DNA of 64,000 nucleotides from a phage, in NCBI GenBank assembly GCA_036253495.1, contig GCA_036253495.1_4125.1. One strand, 5' to 3'. This document shows, in pieces, positions 14,290 to 59,143 of this stretch. A model generated the notes under the pieces. The model saw only the letters and a program-made list of their open reading frames with translations. It had not been told where the DNA came from and made no database searches. How positions within the stretch are numbered: the first letter of the stretch is position 1; each line of letters begins with the position of its first letter. A program made the position numbers and the translations under genes.

Positions 14290-15216
14290 TTGACAATAGC
14301 GATACAAACACCTAAAACTAAGACAGCTATAGGCTTATTAGTTTCACTTGTTATCATCGCTGCGTTTGGATTTTATGGTTTTTCTCAACATGATCGTGCA
14401 TCATCATCGGGCGAAAGTCAGGTGCACAATTTAAAACCGCAAGTTACACAAATTCAAAAGCAGGAATTACCTAAAGGGTATACACCTAAAGTAGTTCCAG
14501 GCAGCGAGAAACATTATACTGTTGAATACGGTGATAGTTATCATTCGATAGCTAAGAAGTTTAAACCGCATAATGTGTTGTTTGAAGATTACGTTACAGT
14601 ATTGAAGAATATCAATCTTAATGCTAAACTTCATACATCGCAGGGTATCTTTATCCCAACAAAAGAGGATTTGAAAGACGTACTGTTACCTGATGTGGTA
14701 GTACTTTTCGATTATAATGATCCTGAAATAGTAGCACACATCAAAGAAGCTGAAGGTTCAATTGAATTTCAGTCCAAGAACAAAAGACGTTTACTTGGGG
14801 GAAAAGTTGGAGTTCCTTTCTACAATTCAAAATTTCATCCTTATAAGGATATGAAAGGTAACTACACAATCGCATATGGTCACTACCTCGGTCCACGTGA
14901 ATCAGATGCTATAAAATATAGGAATGGTATCACAGTTACTGAAGCCCATAACTTGTTACTCACTGATATGAAAAGAATCAATGATGAATTGATTCTATTA
15001 TTGAAGAAGAAAAATGCAACATATCTCACAGTTGAACAACAAATAATACTATTTGATATGGCATTTACTTTAGGTATTAATAAGCTCAATACTTTTAATA
15101 AGTTATGGAAAAGTGTTGAAAAAAGGAATGCAAAAAAGTTTAAAAAAGAAATTAAGAATTCACTATGGTATAGACAAGTTGGGAAACGTGGGGAATTATT
15201 AGTTAATAATTTGTAA
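14290..15216 (+). CDS. membrane-anchored LysM plus T4-lysozyme-like (GH24-like) protein
   Basis: TTG start 7 nt after AAGGAGG; N-terminal TM; LysM-like YTVEYGDSYHSIAKKF; C-terminal YKDMKGNYTIAYGH...WYRQ resembles the T4 lysozyme core. Confidence 0.6.
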   Translation: MTIAIQTPKTKTAIGLLVSLVIIAAFGFYGFSQHDRASSSGESQVHNLKPQVTQIQKQELPKGYTPKVVPGSEKHYTVEYGDSYHSIAKKFKPHNVLFEDYVTVLKNINLNAKLHTSQGIFIPTKEDLKDVLLPDVVVLFDYNDPEIVAHIKEAEGSIEFQSKNKRRLLGGKVGVPFYNSKFHPYKDMKGNYTIAYGHYLGPRESDAIKYRNGITVTEAHNLLLTDMKRINDELILLLKKKNATYLTVEQQIILFDMAFTLGINKLNTFNKLWKSVEKRNAKKFKKEIKNSLWYRQVGKRGELLVNNL

Positions 15217-15220
15217 TTAT

Positions 15221-15244
15221 AGGGATGTTTAACATCCCTTTTTA
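15221..15244 (+). terminator. rho-independent terminator
   Basis: agggatg-tttaa-catccct hairpin followed by TTTT. Confidence 0.6.
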
Positions 15245-15260
15245 ATCGGAGTTTTAGATT

Positions 15261-15893
15261 ATGCTATATAATATTGGTATTATGGACGTACCTGGTGATG
15301 GTAACATAAAATCTCCTGATAATAAAATATATAAAACATGGTGTTCAATCTTTGTTAGATGCTATTCGCCAATATCACTAAAAAAACGCCCAACGTATGA
15401 ATTAACCGAAGTATGTGATGAATGGAAACTATATTCAAACTTCAAAAAATGGTATATAAGTAATTATATAGAAGGTTACTTTCTTGATAAAGATATTATT
15501 GATGGTACTTCTAATATTTACTCACCATATACTTGCTCGTTTGTTCCAAACATTATAAATTGTTGTATTTTGGATGGGAATTCAAAAAACTCTAATCTAC
15601 CAATTGGTGTTCATTATAGACCGAAAGGGAAAGATATGGTCAACGAATTTTCGAATCCATATCAAGCAAGACTCTGGAAATATAAAAAACGTGTATCACT
15701 CGGATGTTATCCTACACCATATGATGCACATAAAGCGTGGCAATTTGGTAAGAAAGAATACTTATTAGAATTGATTAACGACTATAGTGATAAAGTTACC
15801 CCTGAAGTTGTTGTCGGTTTACAACGTAGAATTGATATACTAACCGATGATATAAAAAAATGTAGAATTACAAATTCAATCAGTAAAATATAG
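15261..15893 (+). CDS. hypothetical protein, possible AP2-like DNA-binding / homing-endonuclease-like
   Basis: GVHYRPKGK...YQARLW...LGCYPTPYDAHKAW resembles the AP2 domain pattern; no HNH catalytic motif seen. Confidence 0.4.
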   Translation: MLYNIGIMDVPGDGNIKSPDNKIYKTWCSIFVRCYSPISLKKRPTYELTEVCDEWKLYSNFKKWYISNYIEGYFLDKDIIDGTSNIYSPYTCSFVPNIINCCILDGNSKNSNLPIGVHYRPKGKDMVNEFSNPYQARLWKYKKRVSLGCYPTPYDAHKAWQFGKKEYLLELINDYSDKVTPEVVVGLQRRIDILTDDIKKCRITNSISKI

Positions 15894-15898
15894 AGAGG

Positions 15899-16237
15899 TT
15901 GTATATGCTAAATCTAGTTATTCAAGGTAATGTTGATATTACTCCAGCAATCCATGACGCAATTCATCAAGAAGCAAACACTCTAAATAAATTTAGTGAT
16001 TCTTCAGTACTGAATATTGGTGTTCATGTGAAAAAAGAGCATAAGACACAGTACGCAGTAACTTTAACATCAGGTGGTAAGTCTGTTACTGCCGATGATG
16101 CAGATTTATACAAGGCGATTGTCGATTCATTCGAAAAAATGGAAACTGTATTCAGTAAAGACAAAAGCATTAAATTGCACCGCCGAAACCATCCAGACCG
16201 TCCAGTTGTAGTTGATGTAACTGACGAAGAAGAGTAA
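15899..16237 (+). CDS. hypothetical protein
   Basis: ORF followed by a terminator. Confidence 0.5.
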   Translation: MYMLNLVIQGNVDITPAIHDAIHQEANTLNKFSDSSVLNIGVHVKKEHKTQYAVTLTSGGKSVTADDADLYKAIVDSFEKMETVFSKDKSIKLHRRNHPDRPVVVDVTDEEE

Positions 16238-16246
16238 TATAACAAA

Positions 16247-16274
16247 GGGACAGATTAATTCTGTCCCTTTTCTT
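16247..16274 (+). terminator. rho-independent terminator
   Basis: gggacag-attaatt-ctgtccc hairpin followed by TTTTCTT. Confidence 0.6.
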
Positions 16275-16288
16275 ATGGAGTTTTAATT

Positions 16289-16699
16289 ATGAATTATGCT
16301 TGGATGGAAATTGTAAAATCTCTCGTATCAACACATGATGTTGATTTACCAGATAGTCTAGTATTTAATAGATGGTACTATCCATATCCAGAGGACCGTA
16401 GGGTTGGAATTGGATTTTTTATTAATGATAAATCTAATTTGATTGGATTAATTGAAGATCTGAAATCCAACGTAGTGTCGTTCTCAATTGAGTTTAATGA
16501 CGATCACATAAAATACTACACCAGTAAAATGGACGAAGACGATGTTATAATCCCTATGGATATAGATGAAGCTTCATTTTTTCAGTTATCATTGATTTAT
16601 GATCTATCTAACATTACTTATGATAATGTGAAAGACCTTTTTATATTGTACAATAAAATGTATAATTACTTTTTAAGACCTTTTTATATTGTACAATAA
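16289..16699 (+). CDS. hypothetical protein
   Basis: ORF; its 3' end runs into a 43-bp tandem duplication. Confidence 0.5.
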   Translation: MNYAWMEIVKSLVSTHDVDLPDSLVFNRWYYPYPEDRRVGIGFFINDKSNLIGLIEDLKSNVVSFSIEFNDDHIKYYTSKMDEDDVIIPMDIDEASFFQLSLIYDLSNITYDNVKDLFILYNKMYNYFLRPFYIVQ

Positions 16700-16718
16700 A
16701 ATGTATAATTACTTTTTA
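16633..16718. repeat. perfect 43-bp tandem duplication (2 copies)
   Basis: agacctttttatattgtacaataaaatgtataattacttttta at 16633-16675 is repeated exactly at 16676-16718. Confidence 0.9.
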
Positions 16719-16734
16719 TAACAGAGGTATAGTG

Positions 16735-16920
16735 ATGGAATATACAATAGGTGCAATAGTATGTATCGCAGCATTATTAGGTGGCATTGGTGTGATGATT
16801 TACTTTGATGCAGAACCCAGTACTGAAATGGGTACAACCCTGGAACTCAAACCTGGCATTAAGGTGAACGACTCTTACTGTTACGATCCACATAGTAATA
16901 AGTATGTGATTTGTTTATGA
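16735..16920 (+). CDS. small membrane protein
   Basis: ATG at 16735 after AGAGG; one hydrophobic TM-like segment. Confidence 0.4.
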   Translation: MEYTIGAIVCIAALLGGIGVMIYFDAEPSTEMGTTLELKPGIKVNDSYCYDPHSNKYVICL

Positions 16921-17327
16921 AAAAGTTTAATATTAAACCGATATTTGATGCTATCGAAATTAAATTGAAAGACCAACGAAAACCCGATGGTACTGGTTTA
17001 TTCTTTAGTTTAGATAGAACCTACGTTGAAACACATGTATCAAGTTTTGATAGAACTGGTAATCTTTTCATCCGTTCATATAACATGTTTTATAGTGAAG
17101 ATGTTTTTATGATAGATATCACTTTAGATGAAAGTATAGGTTTGATGTACATTGAAGATGTTCAATCAAACGATCAACGAAACGGCACACTTCCTATTGG
17201 TGCTACCGAGGAAGAGTTTATGCAATATCAGTTCATTGATGATACCTTTGGTATTGACTTTGTGACATATCAGAGTATAATGCGTGTATACGAACAGTAT
17301 GAGGATTACGTAATTGGACGTTACTAA
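16917..17327 (+). CDS. hypothetical protein, tandem paralog family B copy 1
   Basis: Shares the C-terminal QYxFIDDTFGID(F/Y) motif with the next ORF. Confidence 0.5.
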   Translation: MKKFNIKPIFDAIEIKLKDQRKPDGTGLFFSLDRTYVETHVSSFDRTGNLFIRSYNMFYSEDVFMIDITLDESIGLMYIEDVQSNDQRNGTLPIGATEEEFMQYQFIDDTFGIDFVTYQSIMRVYEQYEDYVIGRY

Positions 17328-17736
17328 AATACCCAAATTCAACGAAACGTTAAAGTACTTTTCTGAACAAGAGTTCAGTACTGAAAGACGTGGTTTAGTC
17401 ACATACAACCAATATCGCGTAATGTATACTAACCAGTTACAAGGAACAGTACGTATTAAAATCCGTAATGCATATGATGATGGTGATGAATTATTAATTA
17501 TACTAAGAAAAAGTAAGATAGAACTACAATACCATAGATTTGATACTTCCGATGAGTTTGCATGGAATGTGTTAGAAAAAAAAGCAGGTTCATTGCCTGT
17601 AGTTGATGATGGACCTGAAGTACTGGCCCAGTATATGTTCATTGATGACACATTTGGTATTGACTATTCTTCATTTCAGTATATACTATCTATACATAAA
17701 CAATATGAATCCCGCTTGCGTGACAGATTAATTTAA
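17314..17736 (+). CDS. hypothetical protein, tandem paralog family B copy 2
   Basis: Paralog of 16917..17327; probable TTG start after GAGGA. Confidence 0.45.
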   Translation: MDVTKIPKFNETLKYFSEQEFSTERRGLVTYNQYRVMYTNQLQGTVRIKIRNAYDDGDELLIILRKSKIELQYHRFDTSDEFAWNVLEKKAGSLPVVDDGPEVLAQYMFIDDTFGIDYSSFQYILSIHKQYESRLRDRLI

Positions 17737-17872
17737 TTGGAGGCTTTATGATTGCAATGTTAGAAGAAGATTGGGGTGTTTCTGAACAAGGAACCGACGA
17801 ATATCAAGTTCCAGAATACAAGCCAAAAGGCTTCTGGGAAAGTCTGCGTGATTGGTTGATGGGAGAATAAGA

Positions 17873-18985
17873 ATGAAAAAATACCTTGTTGGTGGATACT
17901 GCCGCGACCGTCTAATGGGCATTCGTGCAAAGGACAAAGATTATGTCATTGTTGGTGCAACTGAATCTGATATAAAATACTTAGAAAGTATTGGATATAA
18001 ACAGGTTGGTAAAGATTTTCCAGTTTATCTAAGCCCAGAAGGTAACGAACACGCATTAGCCCGTACTGAACGAAAAACTGGTACTGGATACGGTGGCTTC
18101 GAAGTGGATACAAAAGGTGTAACACTGGAACAAGATTTGTATCGTCGTGATCTTACAATTAATGCAATCGCGTATGATCCAGTACTGCAAATTCACATCG
18201 ACCCATACGGTGGTAAAGCTGATATCAAGAATAAAGTACTACGCCATGTATCCGAGCACTTCAAAGAAGATCCATTGCGTGTATTACGTCTAGCTCGCTT
18301 TGCTACGCGTTATTCTGATTTCTCTATACACGAGACTACTGAAGCACTTGCAATCGATATGGTAGCGTCTGGTGAGCTAAATCACCTTGTTCCAGACCGT
18401 GTTTATGTTGAATTTGAAAAGGCATTGTCAGAAGAGAAGCCAGCTAAGTTCCTTAAAACACTAAGTAAGTTGGGTTACTATGAAAAAGCATTTAATGCTA
18501 CATTAACCAAAAAGTCATTGGAACTCATTGATCATATCTCTGATAATTGTACTGAAGCATATAAGCCATATTTCTTATGGTCTGTGCTTCTTGAGAAAGA
18601 AGAAGTTGGCGAGGATTCAGTACTGAATGGTGCTATTAAAATGCCCGTTAAGTACGTTAAATTCAGTAATTACATCAAACGTTTCCGTGATGATATCAAG
18701 GCATTCCGTAAAAAGACCCCAAATGAAATGGGACAATTATTACTGGATATGAATATCAAGAATAACGGCGGTGAAGAATTCCTTTACAAAGTACTGGAAT
18801 ATTTTATTCTACGTAAAGAGATTGATTTAGACCTTGAAGATTTAATCATTAAGGTATATGATCGTTACACTGATGTAGTACTTCCAGATATTCAACAACT
18901 GGTAAAAGACGGTGAGTTAGAAGCATCTGAAATCCGTGATTTTGTTTCAGATTTACGTTGTGAAGCAATTCAACAAATGTTTTAA
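17873..18985 (+). CDS. tRNA nucleotidyltransferase (CCA-adding enzyme) / poly(A) polymerase head-domain family
   Basis: LVGGYCRDRLMG...DKDY head-domain motif and RRDLTINAIAYD; ATG at 17873 after GGGAGA. Confidence 0.75.
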   Translation: MKKYLVGGYCRDRLMGIRAKDKDYVIVGATESDIKYLESIGYKQVGKDFPVYLSPEGNEHALARTERKTGTGYGGFEVDTKGVTLEQDLYRRDLTINAIAYDPVLQIHIDPYGGKADIKNKVLRHVSEHFKEDPLRVLRLARFATRYSDFSIHETTEALAIDMVASGELNHLVPDRVYVEFEKALSEEKPAKFLKTLSKLGYYEKAFNATLTKKSLELIDHISDNCTEAYKPYFLWSVLLEKEEVGEDSVLNGAIKMPVKYVKFSNYIKRFRDDIKAFRKKTPNEMGQLLLDMNIKNNGGEEFLYKVLEYFILRKEIDLDLEDLIIKVYDRYTDVVLPDIQQLVKDGELEASEIRDFVSDLRCEAIQQMF

Positions 18986-18990
18986 AACTC

Positions 18991-19019
18991 TGGGACAATA
19001 GAACGACTTCTGATATAAT
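18991..19019 (+). promoter_or_regulatory. promoter with extended -10 (TGGGAC-17-TATAAT, TGaTATAAT)
   Basis: Same architecture as the sites at 7476 and 37855; upstream of the Nudix gene. Confidence 0.5.
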
Positions 19020-19058
19020 AATTGTATCTGGGCATCATTGCTATTAAGAGATAAGATT

Positions 19059-19488
19059 ATGCGTTATAGTTGTGGCATTATATTTTATCGTGATGGTCAG
19101 ATACTTGTTGGACACACAACACGGACAGAAGCATTGGGATTTACCAAAAGGTAAAACCGAGGGCAATGAAACATTTGCTGAAGCTGCTGTTCGTGAGTGC
19201 TATGAAGAAACAGGATTTGAGATTGATGAAAAGGATCTTCTCTTATTAGGTGATGTATCATACAGGAAAGGGAAAAGATTAGTTTTATTTTTCTATACAG
19301 CTAAATACAAACCCGAACCGGATGAACTGAAGTGTAACAGTACTTATACCAATCGATATGGTAAAAGCCATCCAGAATTGGATAAATTCATGTACATTGA
19401 TGTTCAAGATTGTCAAAAGTATTTGACCGAACGAATGTGTAACAGTATAATTAAAGCTGTTAAATTGTTTCAAAAAAATAAAGGATAG
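19059..19488 (+). CDS. Nudix hydrolase, reading frame interrupted by an apparent 1-nt insertion near 19122
   Basis: Frame 0 from the ATG at 19059 gives MRYSCGIIFYRDGQILVGHTT... then stops at 19152; the Nudix box GKTEGNETFAEAAVRECYEETGFEI continues in the +1 frame. Confidence 0.55.
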
Positions 19489-19492
19489 TTAT

Positions 19493-19741
19493 ATGAAAGT
19501 GAAAATTTATGGTCGCACGACTGGTTGTAATTTCTGTGATACAGCAAAAGCAATTTGTGAGAACAATTCATTTGAAATGGATTTTATCGATGTGGTTTCT
19601 GAAGGTATTGATGGTGCTAAACTATCAGAAATTTGCGGTGAGCCAGTTCGTCAAGTTCCACAAATTTTCGTAAATGATGAGTATGTTCCTGGTGGATGTA
19701 CTGGTTTTGTTAACGGGCTAAAAGAAGGTCGCTGGAACTAA
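19493..19741 (+). CDS. nrdC: glutaredoxin/thioredoxin-like protein (T4 NrdC-like)
   Basis: 82 aa with an N-terminal C-N-F-C redox motif (GCNFCDTAK). Confidence 0.6.
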   Translation: MKVKIYGRTTGCNFCDTAKAICENNSFEMDFIDVVSEGIDGAKLSEICGEPVRQVPQIFVNDEYVPGGCTGFVNGLKEGRWN

Positions 19742-19980
19742 TGAATATCGATAAGGTATCATCACGAGCACGTGCATTGGCTGACAGTTTGGGAGTTAAA
19801 TTTGAAACTCCAGATATCAACCAATCAAAACAAAAAGCTCAAAAGAAAATTCATGAAATGAAAGAATACACATCAAGACGTGAAGAATACGATGCTGCTA
19901 TTTCTCACATTATTGAAGTGTTTAGTAAAGATGATATTTTAGCATTTATTGCTTCACATGAGGTTGTAAAAAACCCCTAA
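19741..19980 (+). CDS. hypothetical protein
   Basis: ORF with ATGA-type overlap to the upstream gene. Confidence 0.45.
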   Translation: MNIDKVSSRARALADSLGVKFETPDINQSKQKAQKKIHEMKEYTSRREEYDAAISHIIEVFSKDDILAFIASHEVVKNP

Positions 19981-20030
19981 ATAATATTGAAGAACAACAA
20001 GTTCTTCTTAACAATTTGGGAGATACTATT

Positions 20031-20273
20031 ATGCTCAGTTTTCGTGAACAATTAGCAAAAGGTCAATTTCAGACTAAAGCTCAAACAAATATTCCTAAAA
20101 AATCTGCATTCTTAGGAACAATTACGGAAGATGGTTATTGTGACTTCAATCCACCAGAAGATAGCTGGTATATTGAAAAAGACACAAAACGTAGTAATAG
20201 ACTTCACAAAAGTACAATAGCAAGAAAGCATCGAAAAGAATTGAAGAAAATTCGTTTCGGTGAAGAAGAATAA
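20031..20273 (+). CDS. hypothetical protein
   Basis: ATG at 20031 after GGGAGA; the listed ORF starts at an upstream TTG. Confidence 0.45.
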   Translation: MLSFREQLAKGQFQTKAQTNIPKKSAFLGTITEDGYCDFNPPEDSWYIEKDTKRSNRLHKSTIARKHRKELKKIRFGEEE

Positions 20274-20287
20274 CCTAATAATATAAA

Positions 20288-20317
20288 GGACTTGAGATTA
20301 TCGAGTCCTTTTCTTTT
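20288..20317 (+). terminator. rho-independent terminator
   Basis: ggacttgag-atta-tcgagtcc hairpin (one wobble) followed by a T-run. Confidence 0.5.
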
Positions 20318-20328
20318 CGGAGCACTAA

Positions 20329-20808
20329 ATGATACATGAACATAGCGGCAATCTGTTTGATTTATTCAGTACTGTTACTGATGATCAAACCGCGTTGCAT
20401 ATAATCGCTCATGGTTGTAATGCACAGGGTAAGATGGGTTCGGGTTTTGCAAAAGAATTAAGAAAGCGTCACCAATTGGCATATGATGTGTATCATACAC
20501 GTTATACCAATCAGAATGGTTTGAAATTGGGTGAAGTTGTCTATGCAGCACCAAATAATAACTTAATTATTGCAAACTGCATTACACAAGAGTATTATGG
20601 TAATGATGGTAAGAAGTATGTAAGTTATGATGCGATTGACCTTGCATTTAACTCGATGAATGAATTCATTAAAAATGAACCACAAGAGATCCATGTACAC
20701 TTCCCGAAAATTGGAGCCGATTTAGGCGGTGGTAACTGGAACGTTATCAAAGAAATCATTGACCACAGGCTGGTTAATGCTGAAAAACATTTATATATTC
20801 TCAAATAA
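20329..20808 (+). CDS. macro-domain-like protein (ADP-ribose binding/processing candidate)
   Basis: ALHIIAHGCNAQGKMGSGFA resembles the macro-domain AIVNAAN..L.GGGGV..AI loop, with a later Gly-rich FPKIGADLGGGNW segment. Confidence 0.4.
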   Translation: MIHEHSGNLFDLFSTVTDDQTALHIIAHGCNAQGKMGSGFAKELRKRHQLAYDVYHTRYTNQNGLKLGEVVYAAPNNNLIIANCITQEYYGNDGKKYVSYDAIDLAFNSMNEFIKNEPQEIHVHFPKIGADLGGGNWNVIKEIIDHRLVNAEKHLYILK

Positions 20809-20828
20809 ACAAAAAGGACTTGACAAAA

Positions 20829-21137
20829 ATGACTATTACCGTTAAACTACTAAACATCAACAACGTTGGCCCAGTACTAGCAGTTCTACAAACCGATGCT
20901 CCAGAAGCAGTAGTAGTTAACTACCCAGCACAGCTAGGTACTGACGAAAAAGGTGAAATCATTCTACGTGATTATCTAGAATTTATTAGTTCAGAAAAAG
21001 GTGTTATTTTCTTCAAATCTAACATCATCAGTATCAGTGATGCAAACCCTGCACTGGTTGATGCTTATGTTGAAGCAATTAAGACTCTAGAAGATAAGCC
21101 AGCGTTGATTGTCCCTGACAACAAAATCATCCTATAA
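20829..21137 (+). CDS. hypothetical protein
   Basis: ATG at 20829 after AAAGGA. Confidence 0.45.
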   Translation: MTITVKLLNINNVGPVLAVLQTDAPEAVVVNYPAQLGTDEKGEIILRDYLEFISSEKGVIFFKSNIISISDANPALVDAYVEAIKTLEDKPALIVPDNKIIL

Positions 21138-21149
21138 TAGAGGTATAAA

Positions 21150-21527
21150 ATGGCTGCTAATGAAGTGAAAGCAAAAACTATTCAAGCTATCGTAGTACTG
21201 AAAGGTAAAACCCCATCACCAAAAGAATTGGTTATGGCTGGCATGACTATGCTACATCAGTACAACCCAGCATCCCCTAACTATGTTCAAGAATATGAAG
21301 CCAAACAGTTTAAAGCTCATTGGGATTCATGGATTAAAGACAATGAACTGGAACAAGTTGTCTATGAAGCAGATGACATGGATGAAATGATGCAGATTGA
21401 ATATCTTGCGAATCAGCAGTCAGTACCACTAAGTATGTTTGGTAATGGGGAAGAGGTTCTAGTACTCGGCCCCTTCACTAAAAAAGATATTGAACACATT
21501 GTCACTAACTGTACAAAGATAAGTTAA
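21150..21527 (+). CDS. hypothetical protein
   Basis: ORF; no motif recognised. Confidence 0.5.
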   Translation: MAANEVKAKTIQAIVVLKGKTPSPKELVMAGMTMLHQYNPASPNYVQEYEAKQFKAHWDSWIKDNELEQVVYEADDMDEMMQIEYLANQQSVPLSMFGNGEEVLVLGPFTKKDIEHIVTNCTKIS

Positions 21528-21739
21528 TGAGCGATCATCTTTTAACAGGTGTTTATAATCATAAATTAATAGTCGGAAATACTCATTACTGGATTGAGCC
21601 AAATCAAGACTATATAATATACTATCATGATGGGAAACATATATATTCAGTTAGTATATTTGGTTTCCTTGATATGATAGATACTGAACACTTTGTTAAC
21701 TTAGTTTATTTGCGTTGTTGGTACGATAGACTAAGCTAA
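21527..21739 (+). CDS. hypothetical protein
   Basis: Short ORF with ATGA-type overlap. Confidence 0.4.
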   Translation: MSDHLLTGVYNHKLIVGNTHYWIEPNQDYIIYYHDGKHIYSVSIFGFLDMIDTEHFVNLVYLRCWYDRLS

Positions 21740-21753
21740 ATCAATAGCACCTC

Positions 21754-21770
21754 TAAATAATGTATATAAA
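21754..21770 (+). promoter_or_regulatory. late-promoter-like motif (TAAATAAT / TATATAAA)
   Basis: Resembles the T4 late consensus TATAAATA; about 25 nt upstream of the gene at 21791. Confidence 0.3.
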
Positions 21771-21790
21771 CATTAAAGAGGTGCTTTTTT

Positions 21791-22582
21791 ATGTCATATG
21801 ACTATATGGGTGGAAATCCAGATGCCCCAAATTACGATCACCGTGAAAAATTAAAAGATGTGATTACACAAATGTTGGGTGCTGGTGCTGTTGAAGTTGA
21901 AATTACTGATGGACAATTAGAAATCGCAATCGATAATGCGGTATCAAACTACAGAGCATGGAGTTCTGCATCAAAAGAAGAAGCTTTTTTAAGCATGAAA
22001 TTCTATGATTCTCAATCAGTTTACATGCTACCAACTGAAGTGGAAATTGTTAAGAAAATTTATCGTTATGGTAATGGTTATTTGAGTTCTGGTAGTGGTA
22101 ACTCAGTTGATCCATTTTCAATTGCATTTACAAACACATATCTACTAACGTCTGCTCGCAACGCTGGTGGTTATGATTTAACAACCTATGACTTCAGCTT
22201 CCAGTTTCAGGAATTAGTAGGTCGTATGTTTGGACGTGAGATTATTTTCCAGTTTAACCCTATGACTAAGAAACTGGTTATTGACCGTGATATTCGCGGC
22301 ACAGAAGAAGTACTGGTTCATGTGTATCATAACATCCCAGAACCACTACTATTCCAACGTCAAATGAGTTATCCGTGGCTTCGTGATTGGGCTTTATCGG
22401 AAGCGATGATTATGTTAGGTCGCAACCGTGCTAAGTTTGCTTCTTTGCCTGGACCACAAGGAACATTTTCAATGGATGGTGATACACTTCGTAATGAAGG
22501 TATGCAACTCCAGGAACAACTTAAAGAACAGTTGAAGAGATACAAAGATGGTGGTGAACCACTTGGTATGATTATTGGTTAA
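21791..22582 (+). CDS. hypothetical protein (possibly structural)
   Basis: ORF with a late-like motif upstream and a terminator downstream. Confidence 0.5.
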   Translation: MSYDYMGGNPDAPNYDHREKLKDVITQMLGAGAVEVEITDGQLEIAIDNAVSNYRAWSSASKEEAFLSMKFYDSQSVYMLPTEVEIVKKIYRYGNGYLSSGSGNSVDPFSIAFTNTYLLTSARNAGGYDLTTYDFSFQFQELVGRMFGREIIFQFNPMTKKLVIDRDIRGTEEVLVHVYHNIPEPLLFQRQMSYPWLRDWALSEAMIMLGRNRAKFASLPGPQGTFSMDGDTLRNEGMQLQEQLKEQLKRYKDGGEPLGMIIG

Positions 22583-22591
22583 AATAAAAAA

Positions 22592-22616
22592 AGACTCCAT
22601 GTTGGGGTCTTTTTTC
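22592..22616 (+). terminator. rho-independent terminator
   Basis: agactcc-atgtt-ggggtct hairpin followed by TTTTT. Confidence 0.5.
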
Positions 22617-22631
22617 ATATACGGTGATATA

Positions 22632-22889
22632 ATGACAATTGAATATGCAAAATTCAGATGTGGAAAATTAAGCGACAATTATTTCGAATCAGAACAGTAC
22701 TGGCGATTTATCAAAAATGCATTAGTAGATGTATTCACCAGGGATGTAATTAACGCATGGGCAAGTATATGCAGGGATGATAATGGAAAAACATTTTATG
22801 TTGTATATGTGTCAGTATACAACGGTAATGAAACTATTATTGATATAGTTAGAAGCTTAGTTGGTGATGAATATATGAAGGAAGTGTAA
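22632..22889 (+). CDS. hypothetical protein
   Basis: Listed ORF 22575..22889 spans the upstream terminator; the in-frame ATG at 22632 is the more plausible start, but no clear RBS. Confidence 0.3.
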   Translation: MTIEYAKFRCGKLSDNYFESEQYWRFIKNALVDVFTRDVINAWASICRDDNGKTFYVVYVSVYNGNETIIDIVRSLVGDEYMKEV

Positions 22890-22891
22890 CT

Positions 22892-23518
22892 ATGGAAAGA
22901 AAAATCGTAGCCATCAATGGCTCAATAGGAAGTGGTAAAGATACATACGCTAAAACATTCATCGATAATGGATATACCCGTATGTCGTTTGCAAAGAACC
23001 TGAAAGATTCAGTTGCAGCTATTTTTGGCTGGGACAGGGAAATGCTTGAAGGAACTACTAAAGAAGGTCGTGCTATTCGTGAACAACCGGATCAGTACTG
23101 GTGTAATAAATTAGGACGTGATGATGTTTCACCACGTTGGGTACTGCAAAATTACGGTACTAATGTAGTTCGTCGTTATTTGCATAATGACATTTGGGTA
23201 TTCAGTTTAGAACGTTCTATGATGGAAATAGAAGGTAACATTATCATTACTGATTGTCGTTTTCCAAATGAATTGAAAATGATTCGTGAAAATAACGGTA
23301 TCATCATTGAAGTTCAACGTAATTTACCATTCTGGTATGGTCTAGCAGCATCATACAATAAAGGTGATATCCAAATGAAACCAGTTGAACTGGAATCAGT
23401 ACATGAATCTGAATGGGCATGGATTGGTATTAACAACCCACATTATATTATCAAGAATAATGGAACTATAAAAGACCTAGAAAACAAAGCACTGGATATT
23501 ATTTATACGAAAAACTGA
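22892..23518 (+). CDS. deoxynucleoside monophosphate kinase (T4 gp1-like)
   Basis: P-loop INGSIGSGKDT and overall pattern resemble the T4 gene 1 dNMP kinase. Confidence 0.55.
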   Translation: MERKIVAINGSIGSGKDTYAKTFIDNGYTRMSFAKNLKDSVAAIFGWDREMLEGTTKEGRAIREQPDQYWCNKLGRDDVSPRWVLQNYGTNVVRRYLHNDIWVFSLERSMMEIEGNIIITDCRFPNELKMIRENNGIIIEVQRNLPFWYGLAASYNKGDIQMKPVELESVHESEWAWIGINNPHYIIKNNGTIKDLENKALDIIYTKN

Positions 23519-28229: not shown

Positions 28230-30343
<2,114 letters not shown>

Positions 30344-57638: not shown

Positions 57639-59143
57639 TCTTTATCCCCTTTTGCACGGTATAGAGTGTTTGGTTTTGCCGCGTCGTGTAATGGGACACG
57701 ATTAGGACTGTTAACGAACTCGGTTAGGGCTAAATCTGCACCTTCCCACGGTTTACGTCCACCATAATCAAAGATTACCCAAGACTTTTTAACTTCACTG
57801 TATTCCCAAAGAGTTACAGGGTTGTAATCCGTGCGATAGAAGTATTCACCATCAGTTGGATCAGATGGGAACGTGTCCCCTTCTTGCACAGTACCGCGAG
57901 CAGGTGGAATTTTAGGTCTTGAATCTTGTTGCGAGTCTATGTTACCATATACACTGTTAGAACTGAAAGGTAAGTTAACATGTGTATCTGGTGGAACTTG
58001 CCATGTACCATCTAAGTACTGGTACATTGTTGGTTTTTCATATTGAATGTAAAAATCCTCAGCATTTTTCGGTGGAACGTCACCAGTTGAGTATTCAACG
58101 TCACAATTAAGCCACTTTTTGAGAGATTTGTCATATTGATACAGGGAATATCCAGTAACATCTGAATCATTCTCTTTATAGAAGAAATCACCGTCAGATG
58201 GTTTACGTGGAAACGTTGTTCCATACGGAACTGAAACATTTTCCCAAGAATTGTTGACTTTCTCTTTCAGTACTGGTAAAGTTTTCTTCAAGAAGTACAT
58301 TTTGTTAGCTGGTTCTTCTGGGAAGTCATATCCATTAAGAACAAACTTTGACAAATCGGTTGTATCTGGTCTATCATCGTATATATGTTCATTTGTGAAG
58401 TGGATGTAAGGGACTTCATCATCAGCTTGCATTATAATACGGTTCATGATATCCATTTCGTTATCATAACTGCTGTTTGGTGAAGAACCATTGGAACCAC
58501 TGTTACCATTACCATTATTTGGGTCATCTGGGTTGTCTGGATAATCATTATTAGTAAGTAAGTCCGCGTACTCAGGTGAATCGGTAATAGGTTTGACACG
58601 AATTTTGTAAATGTGATGTTGCCATGTTGCAGAGTAACCTTCAGATGTTCTAAAACCGTCCTGAACTACGTAAAAACGGTTTAAACCTGAATCTTTACCA
58701 ACAACATCGAAATCACGAAGGTTTGGAAGTTCAATTACATCACCAGGCATAATTTTTCTTCCCAATCGCTGCATCATTGTGTTATAATGAACTGTAATGT
58801 CCATTGTGTTGAAGTTAAAGAACAACCCAGGAATTTTTAAATCAGGTGTTGCTTCTTGTACTTGATAAACACAACTAAGTGTGATAGCCTCTAGATTGTA
58901 ACTACGATTTGAGGTTTCACCAAAAATTAGGTCACCAATACTTGACGCAGCGGAACCATCAGTGATATAATCACCACCGTAAGAATAGTCGTTAGGAGTT
59001 GTTGATGGTTTAGCACCGACAAAGGCATAAAGCCACATGTCTACGCCACCAATATTGTATTGTTCAGCAATGGCAGAATCTATGAATTTATAATCATTGG
59101 TTCTACCTTTTTTCCACATTCTGTATGCCATTTTGTTCTCCAA
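57635..59143 (-). CDS. hypothetical protein (likely virion structural)
   Basis: 502-aa ORF; 4-nt overlap with the downstream gene. Confidence 0.5.
   Translation of the reverse strand: MENKMAYRMWKKGRTNDYKFIDSAIAEQYNIGGVDMWLYAFVGAKPSTTPNDYSYGGDYITDGSAASSIGDLIFGETSNRSYNLEAITLSCVYQVQEATPDLKIPGLFFNFNTMDITVHYNTMMQRLGRKIMPGDVIELPNLRDFDVVGKDSGLNRFYVVQDGFRTSEGYSATWQHHIYKIRVKPITDSPEYADLLTNNDYPDNPDDPNNGNGNSGSNGSSPNSSYDNEMDIMNRIIMQADDEVPYIHFTNEHIYDDRPDTTDLSKFVLNGYDFPEEPANKMYFLKKTLPVLKEKVNNSWENVSVPYGTTFPRKPSDGDFFYKENDSDVTGYSLYQYDKSLKKWLNCDVEYSTGDVPPKNAEDFYIQYEKPTMYQYLDGTWQVPPDTHVNLPFSSNSVYGNIDSQQDSRPKIPPARGTVQEGDTFPSDPTDGEYFYRTDYNPVTLWEYSEVKKSWVIFDYGGRKPWEGADLALTEFVNSPNRVPLHDAAKPNTLYRAKGDKE

What the first reader, a model, noticed from the sequence alone, without database searches (positions are those of the whole stretch)
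19059..19488. Nudix hydrolase gene interrupted by a single-base frame change
The canonical Nudix N-terminus (MRYSCGIIFYRDGQILVGHTT) reads from the ATG at 19059 and stops at 19152, while the Nudix box continues in the +1 frame. Removing one base near 19122 (cacacaaca-c-ggacag) restores one ORF reading ...LVGHTTGQKHWDLPKGKTEGNE.... This is a sequencing/assembly error, a recent pseudogenisation, or a recoding event.
Basis: seen in the sequence. Interest (0 to 1): 0.4.

Follow-up and report, generated by a model that had tools for sequence, protein, structure and literature searches.

The report
Conserved +1 frameshift in phage Nudix gene
A jumbo E. coli phage and all of its close relatives carry the same extra base inside an otherwise well-preserved Nudix enzyme gene, so the ribosome most likely skips that base at a very rare codon to make the full enzyme, rather than the gene being broken or mis-sequenced.

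Summary
The ATG at 19059 opens a 31-codon frame that encodes the first two beta-strands of a Nudix fold and stops at 19152-19154. The Nudix box and the rest of the domain lie in the +1 frame, ending at 19488. Removing C19122 restores a 142-aa protein.

It is not a sequencing error or a recent pseudogene. The window is an Asteriusvirus (99.9% identical to Escherichia phage A4). The same extra base, inside an invariant ACAACACGGACA, occurs in all 27 frameshifted loci I read (14 haplotypes, isolates and metagenomes). A further 21 GenBank records are identical to 121Q over the site. All 36 more distant relatives have one intact ORF.

Within the frameshifted clade, synonymous variation follows frame A up to the site and frame B after it. 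pN/pS is 0.05 and 0.10, as tight as in intact orthologues.

The zero-frame codon at the junction, CGG, is the rarest sense codon in the window (3 of 18,697). A clade member encodes tRNAs for the flanking ACA and the overlapping GGA.

The best explanation is a conserved +1 ribosomal frameshift at ACA_CGG_A, like Ty3 and glass-sponge mitochondria (confidence about 0.6). No protein-level evidence exists. A split or truncated protein remains possible.

The parts
18992..19019 (+). Promoter-like element (GGGACA, 16 nt, TG-n-TATAAT) about 40 nt upstream of the frame-A ATG
   Evidence: Consensus scan, 10 of 12 matches with an extended -10 TG. The number of such sites in the region is not above chance, so this is only consistent with a transcript that starts just upstream of 19059.
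19046..19051 (+). Weak Shine-Dalgarno-like AAGAGA 7 nt upstream of the frame-A start
   Evidence: Anti-SD duplex energy is -2.9 kcal/mol, against -1.5 (background level) for the annotated internal ATG at 19093. AAGAGATAAGA is conserved in the frameshifted clade.
19059..19121 (+). Frame A, codons 1-21 (MRYSCGIIFYRDGQILVGHTT): beta-strands 1 and 2 of the Nudix fold
   Evidence: Residues 3-21 align to residues 5-22 of Ap4A hydrolase 3i7u. In the AlphaFold2 model of the 90%-identical intact homologue, residues 2-8 and 14-20 are strands with pLDDT about 94. Within the frameshifted clade, 9 of 10 minimum changes fall at frame-A third positions and pN/pS is 0.05.
19116..19127 (+). Invariant 12-nt stretch ACAACACGGACA that contains the frame change
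   Evidence: Identical in all 27 frameshifted loci (14 haplotypes), while intact relatives vary synonymously here as ACN ACN GGN CAR. The variable positions that flank it, 19115 and 19128, are third positions of frame A and frame B respectively.
19119..19125 (+). Proposed shift heptanucleotide ACA_CGG_A. C19122 is the extra base. P-site ACA (Thr21), zero-frame A-site CGG, +1 A-site GGA (Gly22).
   Evidence: Serratia phage BF and related phages read ACA ACA GGT CAG with no C. CGG is the rarest sense codon in the window, 3 of 18,697 codons. Clade member Sharanji encodes tRNA-Thr(UGU) and tRNA-Gly(UCC) but no tRNA for CGG.
19123..19488 (+). Frame B, codons 22-142 plus the TAG stop: the rest of the Nudix domain, including the Nudix box (19150-19218)
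   Evidence: Minimum changes by frame-B codon position are 26/14/94 and pN/pS is about 0.10-0.12.
19152..19154 (+). TAA that ends frame A for ribosomes that do not shift, giving a 31-aa product. Most relatives stop two codons earlier at ACC TAA.
   Evidence: The frame-A tail after the site (RTEALGFTKR, RTESLGFT and others) is not conserved as protein.
19093..19095 (+). Internal frame-B ATG used as the start codon in GenBank annotations of relatives, giving truncated 131-136-aa 'nudix hydrolase' proteins
   Evidence: It has no SD-like sequence. The 10 frame-B codons from this ATG to the site evolve at pN/pS 0.80, whereas the same bases read in frame A give 0.10.

Best explanation
The Nudix gene of this phage and of the whole PBECO4/121Q/A4-like Asteriusvirus clade carries a fixed one-base insertion, C19122, between the codons for Thr21 and Gly22. 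The full-length 142-aa enzyme is made by a +1 ribosomal frameshift at ACA_CGG_A. Translation starts at ATG 19059. With peptidyl-tRNA-Thr on ACA (19119-19121) in the P site, the A site presents CGG, which is the rarest codon of the phage and is read by a minor tRNA in E. coli. During that pause, Gly-tRNA(UCC), which the phage itself encodes, pairs with the overlapping GGA (19123-19125). C19122 is skipped and reading continues in frame B to 19488. Ribosomes that do decode CGG terminate ten codons later at 19152-19154. Shown here: the anatomy of the site, its conservation, purifying selection on both halves in their own frames, the rarity of CGG, and the tRNA genes. Inferred: that the two halves are joined by the ribosome, the exact step of the shift, and its efficiency, which may be only a few percent and may serve to keep the enzyme level low.
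For: 1. The same insertion, within an invariant ACAACACGGACA, is present in all 27 frameshifted loci read (14 haplotypes; 14 are GenBank or IMG/VR isolate genomes and 12 are ENA or Logan metagenome contigs). It is also in 21 GenBank records that are 100% identical to 121Q over 120 nt spanning the site. All 36 loci from outgroups have one intact ORF reading GHTTGQxHWDLPKGK.
2. The codon phase of variation switches at the site. Upstream minimum changes by frame-A position are 1/0/9. By my arithmetic, P(at least 9 of 10 at one position) is 3.6e-4. Downstream changes by frame-B position are 26/14/94, and 1/0/6 within the first 27 nt.
3. pN/pS is 0.045 for codons 1-21 in frame A and 0.103 for codons 22-131 in frame B. 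In the wrong frames it exceeds 1.3. Intact orthologues give 0.056 and 0.172, so there is no relaxation of constraint.
4. The frame-A part is an integral piece of the fold: beta-strands 2-8 and 14-20 in a model with pLDDT 94. It aligns to the N-terminus of solved Nudix enzymes.
5. The annotated internal start has no SD, and its frame-B leader is not conserved as protein.
6. CGG is the rarest sense codon in the window at 0.16 per thousand. Sharanji, which is identical at the site, encodes tRNA-Thr(UGU) and tRNA-Gly(UCC) but no tRNA-Arg(CCG).
7. There are precedents. [quoted passage not shown] An E. coli rpoB +1 insertion is suppressed at 5% at CCC_AGG_C, where the A-site codon is a rare Arg codon (PMC7022156).
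Against: No trans-frame protein, ribosome profiling or reporter data exist for any member of the clade, and I found no proteomics covering it. The P-site tRNA cannot re-pair in the +1 frame (ACA to CAC gives no pairs), and the bacterial precedents found here (prfB, the rpoB suppressor) all rely on re-pairing. No upstream SD-like stimulator is conserved. The downstream consensus fold is weak, with a covariation term of +0.42. Invariance of the three four-fold sites inside the motif is only marginal: 14 of 37 such sites are invariant in the clade, giving P about 0.05. A CGG codon arises automatically when C is inserted before GG. Thr(UGU) and Gly(UCC) are, from my own knowledge, common phage tRNAs, so their presence is not specific evidence. 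A two-piece enzyme would also explain selection on both parts.
Confidence: 0.6

Rival explanations
1. Split or truncated enzyme with no recoding. The 31-aa frame-A peptide and a separately initiated frame-B protein (ATG 19093, as annotated in GenBank) are both made. Either they assemble non-covalently into a two-piece Nudix fold, or the truncated protein works alone and the upstream ORF acts as a leader.
For: Every GenBank annotation calls the 131-136-aa CDS from the internal ATG. ATG 19093 is present in all clade members. Selection on both parts would also be expected for a two-piece enzyme.
Against: The internal ATG has no SD-like sequence and scores at background level, -1.5 kcal/mol. The ATG is simply part of the conserved Asp-Gly codons GAT GGN, which intact relatives also have. 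The frame-B head MVRYL(L/S)(D/G/V)(T/I)QH and the frame-A tail are not conserved as protein. The truncated form would lack strand 1 and replace strand 2 of the core sheet. A leader peptide would have no reason to keep the ancestral Nudix N-terminus at pN/pS 0.05.
Confidence: 0.2
2. Recoding by another route: quadruplet decoding (ACAC or CGGA) by a phage or host tRNA, a phage factor that alters frame maintenance, or correction at the RNA level.
For: The comparative evidence requires only that the halves be joined, not a particular mechanism. The site offers no re-pairing, which leaves room for an unusual decoding step. The neighbourhood and the genome encode several translation factors: an S30AE homologue, a CCA-adding enzyme and a PTH2-like protein in the window, and IF3 and seven tRNAs in Sharanji.
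Against: All seven tRNAs of Sharanji have ordinary 7-nt anticodon loops, and there are no tRNA genes in the window. The site has no homopolymer run, which transcriptional slippage normally needs.
Confidence: 0.1
3. An old pseudogene that is decaying and has no function.
For: A frame-disrupting insertion sits 63 nt into the gene.
Against: No further stops or indels occur in 14 haplotypes with pS about 0.44. pN/pS is 0.05 and 0.10, no weaker than in intact orthologues.
Confidence: 0.04
4. A sequencing or assembly error in this genome.
For: None beyond the frame break itself.
Against: The same base is present in independent isolates and metagenome assemblies from many laboratories. The site is not a homopolymer.
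Confidence: 0.01

Closest known systems
Corrective +1 translational frameshifts in hexactinellid (glass sponge) mitochondrial genes (cox3, nad6 and others)
   Same: A single inserted base (T, or rarely C) lies immediately 5' of a GGA codon. This creates an extremely rare zero-frame UGG_A or CGG_A, and the conserved protein continues in the +1 frame from GGA. Protein on both sides is conserved. The proposed cause is a pause at the rare codon plus an abundant tRNA-Gly for GGA (PMC2267718; PMC5009743). Here C is inserted 5' of GGA, CGG is the rarest codon, and both sides are under selection.
   Different: This case concerns bacterial cytoplasmic ribosomes translating a phage mRNA rather than mitochondrial ribosomes. 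The gene is a non-essential-looking Nudix hydrolase rather than a respiratory-chain subunit. The tRNAs for the P-site codon and the +1 A-site codon are encoded by the phage.
Yeast Ty3 +1 frameshift (GCG_AGU_U)
   Same: [quoted passage not shown]
   Different: Ty3 uses eukaryotic ribosomes, produces two functional products (Gag and Gag-Pol), and has a 14-nt 3' stimulator. Here the unshifted product looks useless, and no 3' nucleotide-level constraint is visible because synonymous sites vary from 19128 onward.
Bacterial prfB (RF2) programmed +1 frameshift, CUU_UGA_C
   Same: It is a +1 shift on bacterial ribosomes at a poorly decoded A-site codon and is required to make the full-length protein (PMC7022156 discussion).
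   Different: prfB has a stop codon in the A site, cognate re-pairing from CUU to UUU, and an upstream Shine-Dalgarno stimulator. None of the three is present here.
Intrinsic suppression of a +1-nt insertion in E. coli rpoB at CCC_AGG_C
   Same: A one-base insertion in an E. coli-translated gene is rescued by +1 shifting at a rare arginine codon, at about 5% efficiency and without any stimulator (PMC7022156).
   Different: The rpoB case is a laboratory or clinical mutant, not an evolutionarily conserved state. Its site allows CCC to CCA re-pairing by tRNA-Pro, which ACA_CGG_A does not.
Extra nucleotide in mitochondrial nad3 of birds and turtles
   Same: A single inserted base is retained across clades and is thought to be skipped by the ribosome (PMC7814300 abstract). 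That the zero-frame codon at the site is a rare AGY codon comes from my own knowledge and was not read here.
   Different: It is mitochondrial and has multiple independent origins. Here the data fit one origin in one phage clade.

Membership tests
Nudix hydrolase superfamily (Pfam PF00293) | Nudix box GX5EX7REUXEEXGU | tested here: met
   G31-KTEGN-E37-TFAEAAV-R45E46-C-Y-E49E50-T-G52-F53 in frame B, 19150-19218.
Nudix hydrolase superfamily (Pfam PF00293) | Significant match to the family profile, including the N-terminal strands | tested here: met
   The joined protein scores 50.9 bits against a cut-off of 21.1 and covers profile positions 7-100. The frame-B ORF alone covers only 24-100. PHROG 1185 matches at E 1.5e-52. 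The fold model of the 90%-identical homologue matches RppH, Ap4A hydrolase and Dcp2 at TM about 0.6.
Nudix hydrolase superfamily (Pfam PF00293) | Pyrophosphohydrolase activity on a nucleoside-diphosphate-X substrate | not testable with these tools
   The substrate is unknown. The nearest solved folds are RNA 5'-pyrophosphohydrolases or decapping enzymes and Ap4A hydrolases.
Programmed or corrective +1 ribosomal frameshift at a hungry sense codon (Ty3 or sponge-mitochondrial type) | Two overlapping ORFs, the second in the +1 frame, that together are collinear with a single ORF in relatives | tested here: met
Programmed or corrective +1 ribosomal frameshift at a hungry sense codon (Ty3 or sponge-mitochondrial type) | The frame break is conserved across diverged lineages, with purifying selection on each part in its own frame | tested here: met
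   27 loci and 14 haplotypes. pN/pS is 0.045 (frame A part) and 0.103 (frame B part). The phase switches exactly at 19116-19127.
Programmed or corrective +1 ribosomal frameshift at a hungry sense codon (Ty3 or sponge-mitochondrial type) | Slow-to-decode zero-frame A-site codon | tested here: met
   By codon-usage proxy, CGG occurs 3 times in 18,697 codons and is the rarest sense codon in the window. tRNA-Arg(CCG) levels in infected cells were not measured.
Programmed or corrective +1 ribosomal frameshift at a hungry sense codon (Ty3 or sponge-mitochondrial type) | Well-supplied tRNA for the overlapping +1 codon | tested here: inconclusive
   Clade member Sharanji encodes tRNA-Gly(UCC), which reads GGA, and tRNA-Thr(UGU), which reads ACA. 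Their abundance was not measured, and this tRNA set is not known to be specific to the frameshifted clade.
Programmed or corrective +1 ribosomal frameshift at a hungry sense codon (Ty3 or sponge-mitochondrial type) | Nucleotide-level conservation of the shift site beyond what coding requires | tested here: inconclusive
   The 12 nt are invariant in 14 haplotypes, while intact relatives vary at the three four-fold sites. However, 38% of four-fold sites are invariant in the clade, so P is about 0.05.
Programmed or corrective +1 ribosomal frameshift at a hungry sense codon (Ty3 or sponge-mitochondrial type) | Trans-frame protein product observed | not testable with these tools
   No proteomic or ribosome-profiling data were found for the clade.
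prfB-type +1 frameshift | Cognate re-pairing of the P-site tRNA in the +1 frame (for example CUU_U) | tested here: not met
   ACA shifted by +1 is CAC, which cannot form a standard pair with anticodon UGU at any position (read from the sequence).
prfB-type +1 frameshift | In-frame stop codon in the A site and an SD-like stimulator a few nt upstream | tested here: not met
   The A-site codon is the sense codon CGG. Upstream is GG(A/G/T)CA(C/T), which is variable and not SD-like.
-1 frameshift on a slippery heptamer X_XXY_YYZ with a 3' structure | Downstream ORF in the -1 frame, a slippery heptamer, and a stable 3' stem-loop or pseudoknot | tested here: not met
   The second ORF is in the +1 frame and there is no heptamer. 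The consensus fold of the 120 nt around the site is -15.9 kcal/mol with no covariation support.
Transcriptional slippage | Homopolymer run (usually A or T, at least 6-7 nt) at the site | tested here: not met
   The longest run within 19116-19127 is 2 nt.

The most novel reading that the evidence does not exclude
A phage-programmed +1 frameshift of the Ty3 or mitochondrial type, with no P-site re-pairing, operates on E. coli ribosomes. It is set by competition between the host's scarce tRNA-Arg(CCG) and phage-encoded tRNA-Gly(UCC) and tRNA-Thr(UGU). The amount or timing of the RppH/Ap4A-hydrolase-like Nudix enzyme would then be tied to the phage's own tRNA supply. This would give an E. coli-tractable model for a class of frameshifting so far studied mainly in yeast and inferred in mitochondria.
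Probability: 0.3. Interest if true: 0.75.

Novelty: new member of a known kind. Interest (0 to 1): 0.6.

Why it matters
If the +1 shift is confirmed, more than 30 deposited jumbo-phage genomes annotate this gene wrongly, as an N-terminally truncated protein that starts at an internal ATG. It would also show that 'corrective' +1 frameshifting at an inserted base next to GGA, so far described for mitochondria, is maintained over long evolutionary time in a virus of E. coli, where it can be dissected with simple reporters, tRNA over-expression and mass spectrometry. It is a reminder that conserved frame breaks in phage genes should not be filed automatically as errors or pseudogenes. Motif-based predictors that require a re-pairing site, such as PRFect, would miss this class.

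Tried and rejected
1. AAA_AGG (19146-19151) as the shift site. In most clade members this is CCT AAA GG, which puts a frame-A TAA two codons earlier. Frame B is already the selected frame from 19128 on.
2. Re-pairing alternatives around ACA ACA CGG ACA (a -2 slip, hops between ACA codons, or CACACA, which is CATACA in most genomes). None restores frame B with pairing (sequence inspection).
3. A conserved RNA structure downstream. The RNAalifold consensus is weak and has no covariation support.
4. A frameshift-suppressor tRNA. The window has no tRNA genes, and all seven tRNAs of Sharanji have 7-nt anticodon loops.
5. Other CGG_A junctions in the window. The only other hit, at 58226, lies antisense inside a 502-aa gene on the minus strand and is spurious. 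The in-frame CGG at 29738 has no +1 continuation.
6. IMG/VR added only the 121Q genome to the frameshifted set.
7. Literature searches for Asteriusvirus plus frameshift, nudix plus ribosomal frameshift plus phage, and phAPEC6 plus nudix found nothing on this gene. The Sharanji and fEgEco12 papers do not mention it.
8. The promoter and SD scans are only weakly informative.
9. I did not obtain the tRNA set of phage A4 itself or of the intact-gene outgroups, so whether the tRNA complement is specific to the frameshifted clade is untested.

Full report
**Observation.** The sequence is as described. ATG 19059 opens frame A: MRYSCGIIFYRDGQILVGHTT, then RTEALGFTKR, then TAA at 19152-19154. The +1 frame (frame B) is open to TAG 19486-19488. 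It carries GQKHWDLPKGKTEGNETFAEAAVRECYEETGF, a canonical Nudix box at 19150-19218.

Removing C19122 yields a 142-aa protein. Its Pfam NUDIX match reaches profile positions 7-100, compared with 24-100 for frame B alone. It matches PHROG 1185 over residues 1-140 at E 1.5e-52. Residues 3-85 align with residues 5-89 of the Aquifex Ap4A hydrolase 3i7u.

**Source and context.** The window is an Asteriusvirus jumbo phage, 99.9% identical to Escherichia phage A4 over 18700-19800. The gene sits in a neighbourhood related to translation and RNA:
- S30AE hibernation-factor homologue, 15899-16237
- CCA-adding enzyme, 17852-18985
- glutaredoxin, 19493-19741
- macro-domain protein, 20329-20808 (weak match)
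- PTH2-like protein, 21150-21527 (weak match)

GenBank annotators of A4 and its relatives call a truncated 131-136-aa 'nudix hydrolase' from the internal frame-B ATG at 19093. None of the records read annotates a joined CDS.

**Distribution.** I read the locus in 63 genomes or contigs.
- Twenty-seven carry the frame break, representing 14 distinct 420-nt haplotypes. They include the window, A4, UE-S1, ph0011, TH47, JNE01, Turkey5, Ecwhy_1, EC.P1, BF17, phAPEC6, PBECO4, 121Q, fEgEco12 and 12 ENA or Logan metagenome contigs.
- All 27 have the same 12 nt, ACAACACGGACA, at window 19116-19127.
- Twenty-one GenBank records are 100% identical to 121Q over 120 nt spanning the site. These include Sharanji and four phages isolated on Salmonella.
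- Five further records (CMSTMSU, WPEC3, WPEC5, vB_Ec-M-J, Turkey3) have the same match statistics as verified genomes, but I did not read them.
- Thirty-six loci from outgroups have a single intact ORF reading GHTTGQxHWDLPKGK, with synonymous variation ACN ACN GGN CAR. They include Munch, 7t3, fENko-Kae01, Hallingskeid, EJP2, Eneladusvirus, Mimasvirus, and the close uncultured lineages P0001, P0002 and L049.
- Serratia phage BF reads ACA ACA GGT CAG, which is the clade's sequence without the C.
- The intact orthologue of fENko-Kae01 was detected by LC-MS/MS.

**Selection.** Among 11 haplotypes, the 63 nt upstream of the site show minimum changes of 1/0/9 at frame-A codon positions 1/2/3. The single first-position change is Val/Ile. 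The 363 nt downstream show 26/14/94 at frame-B positions. The first variable sites on either side, 19115 and 19128, are third positions of frame A and frame B respectively. The chance that at least 9 of 10 changes hit one codon position is 3.6e-4 by my arithmetic.

pN/pS within the frameshifted clade:

| Stretch | Frame A | Frame B | Frame C |
|---|---|---|---|
| Upstream, codons 1-21 | 0.048 | 1.60 | 1.33 |
| Downstream, 363 nt | 1.92 | 0.118 | 1.44 |

With all loci included, the clade gives 0.045 and 0.103, against 0.056 and 0.172 for the intact orthologues. Constraint is therefore not relaxed. Mean pairwise pS in the downstream part is 0.44, so the insertion is old.

These data exclude sequencing error and both recent and ancient pseudogenisation. 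They also show that the frame-A N-terminus is translated and that its amino-acid sequence matters.

**Why the N-terminus should be joined to the rest.** An AlphaFold2 model of P0001, which is intact and 90% identical to the joined window protein, has pLDDT 94 and places residues 2-8 and 14-20 in two beta-strands of the domain. Its best fold matches are E. coli RppH, Ap4A hydrolase and Dcp2 Nudix domains.

The annotated truncated protein would drop strand 1 and replace strand 2 with MVRYLLDTQH. That peptide evolves at pN/pS 0.80 in frame B, while the same bases give 0.10 in frame A.

The internal ATG has no SD-like sequence: -1.5 kcal/mol, which is the background level for ATGs in the window. 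The frame-A ATG has a weak conserved AAGAGA at -2.9 kcal/mol. A promoter-like site with an extended -10 lies at 18992-19019, but such sites are not more frequent here than chance.

**Mechanism (inferred).** Comparison with the intact proteins places the junction between Thr21 (ACA, 19119-19121) and Gly22 (GGA, 19123-19125). The ribosome must skip C19122, which is a +1 shift on ACA_CGG_A.
- CGG is the rarest sense codon in the window, 3 of 18,697 codons, compared with 396 CGT.
- CGG is read by a minor tRNA in E. coli (from my own knowledge).
- Sharanji, whose site region is identical to that of 121Q, encodes tRNA-Thr(UGU) for ACA and tRNA-Gly(UCC) for GGA, but nothing for CGG. All of its tRNAs have normal 7-nt anticodon loops.
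- The P-site tRNA cannot re-pair in the +1 frame, because ACA becomes CAC.
- There is no stop codon, no conserved SD-like stimulator, no homopolymer and no supported downstream structure.
- Synonymous sites vary freely from 19128 onward, so any signal is confined to the 12 nt.

The most economical model is out-of-frame A-site binding of Gly-tRNA during a pause at a hungry CGG. Efficiency is unknown and could be only a few percent.

[quoted passage not shown] It also resembles the E. coli rpoB +1 insertion that is suppressed at 5% at CCC_AGG_C (PMC7022156). That site, however, allows re-pairing.

It fails the defining features of prfB-type shifting, -1 heptamer shifting and transcriptional slippage.

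I found no publication or annotation that treats this phage gene as recoded.

**Caveats.**
- No protein-level evidence exists.
- The invariance of the three four-fold sites inside the motif is only marginal, P about 0.05.
- CGG follows automatically from inserting C before GG.
- The phage tRNA set is a common one and I did not compare it with that of the outgroups.
- A two-piece enzyme would also keep both parts under selection.
- The middle of the window's gene (about 19177-19340) shares more sites with the intact P0001 lineage than with the other frameshifted genomes: 15 against 8, where the ratio elsewhere is about 1:4. The gene is therefore mosaic or retains ancestral states. The site and its flanks nonetheless group with the frameshifted clade.

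**Verdict.** This is a real, old, clade-wide frame break in a gene that is under normal purifying selection on both sides. It is best explained as a conserved corrective or programmed +1 ribosomal frameshift at ACA_CGG_A, with confidence of about 0.6. It is a new member of a known kind, in an experimentally convenient system. Interest 0.6.

Noticed in passing
L017 315-992 (Escherichia phage EJP2), L016 316-999 (Erwinia phage Hallingskeid); proteins P0003, P0008, P0010, P0011, P0013, P0016: In these relatives the Nudix gene and the downstream glutaredoxin gene form one 225-227-aa ORF carrying PF00293 and PF00462. In the window they are separate: Nudix stops at 19486-19488 and the glutaredoxin ATG is at 19493. 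In TH47, Ecwhy_1, BF17 and fEgEco12 the Nudix ORF overlaps the glutaredoxin start by 11 nt.
   Followed up: partly
window 19177-19340: The middle of the window's Nudix gene is closer to the uncultured intact-gene lineage P0001 (86-92% identity in 150-nt windows) than to the other frameshifted phages (71-79%). The flanks, including the CCA-enzyme gene, are closest to UE-S1. This suggests a short recombinant patch or retained ancestral states.
   Followed up: partly
L025 17374-17463 and 17471-17562, minus strand (Escherichia phage Sharanji, not the window): A 90-nt 'tRNA-Met(CAU)' has a long variable arm, which is a class II shape. Next to it is a 92-nt tRNA-Ser with anticodon ACU (A34). The phage is reported to encode a tRNA adenosine deaminase (PMC11895373), so A34 may become inosine. 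tRNA-Gly(UCC) at L025 19882-19954 has G37 and a U.U mismatch in its anticodon stem.
   Followed up: no
window 19493-19741 and 19741-19980: This looks like an annotation slip in GenBank ON286972 (phage A4). The ORF with the Pfam Glutaredoxin match (19493-19741) is labelled 'hypothetical protein' (A4_538), and the next ORF (A4_539, 19741-19980) is labelled 'glutaredoxin'.
   Followed up: yes
whole window (66 long ORFs, 18,697 codons): CGG is avoided to an extreme degree: 3 codons, 0.16 per thousand, against 396 CGT. AGG (15) and CCC (20) are the next rarest. The two in-frame CGG codons located in long ORFs are both followed by A (17465 on the minus strand, in a doubtful ORF, and 29738 on the plus strand).
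   Followed up: partly
window 14290-23518: Genes related to translation, RNA and nucleotide metabolism cluster around the Nudix gene: an S30AE ribosome-hibernation-factor homologue (15899-16237), a CCA-adding enzyme (17852-18985), glutaredoxin, a macro-domain protein (20329-20808, below the Pfam cut-off), a PTH2-like peptidyl-tRNA hydrolase (21150-21527, below the cut-off) and a dNMP kinase (22892-23518).
   Followed up: partly
window 20285-20311: A terminator-like hairpin with an 11-bp stem followed by a T-rich tail lies between ORF 20016-20273 and the macro-domain gene. Terminator-like sites are more frequent in 18700-20400 than in shuffled sequence: 4 found against 0.8 expected.
   Followed up: no
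GenBank OR699181-OR699183 and OR699188 (Salmonella phages SD-2_S15, SD-6_S16, SD-1_S14, SD-15_S21): Four phages recorded as isolated on Salmonella Typhimurium carry the frameshifted site 100% identical to 121Q. The frameshifted clade is therefore not strictly limited to E. coli hosts.
   Followed up: no
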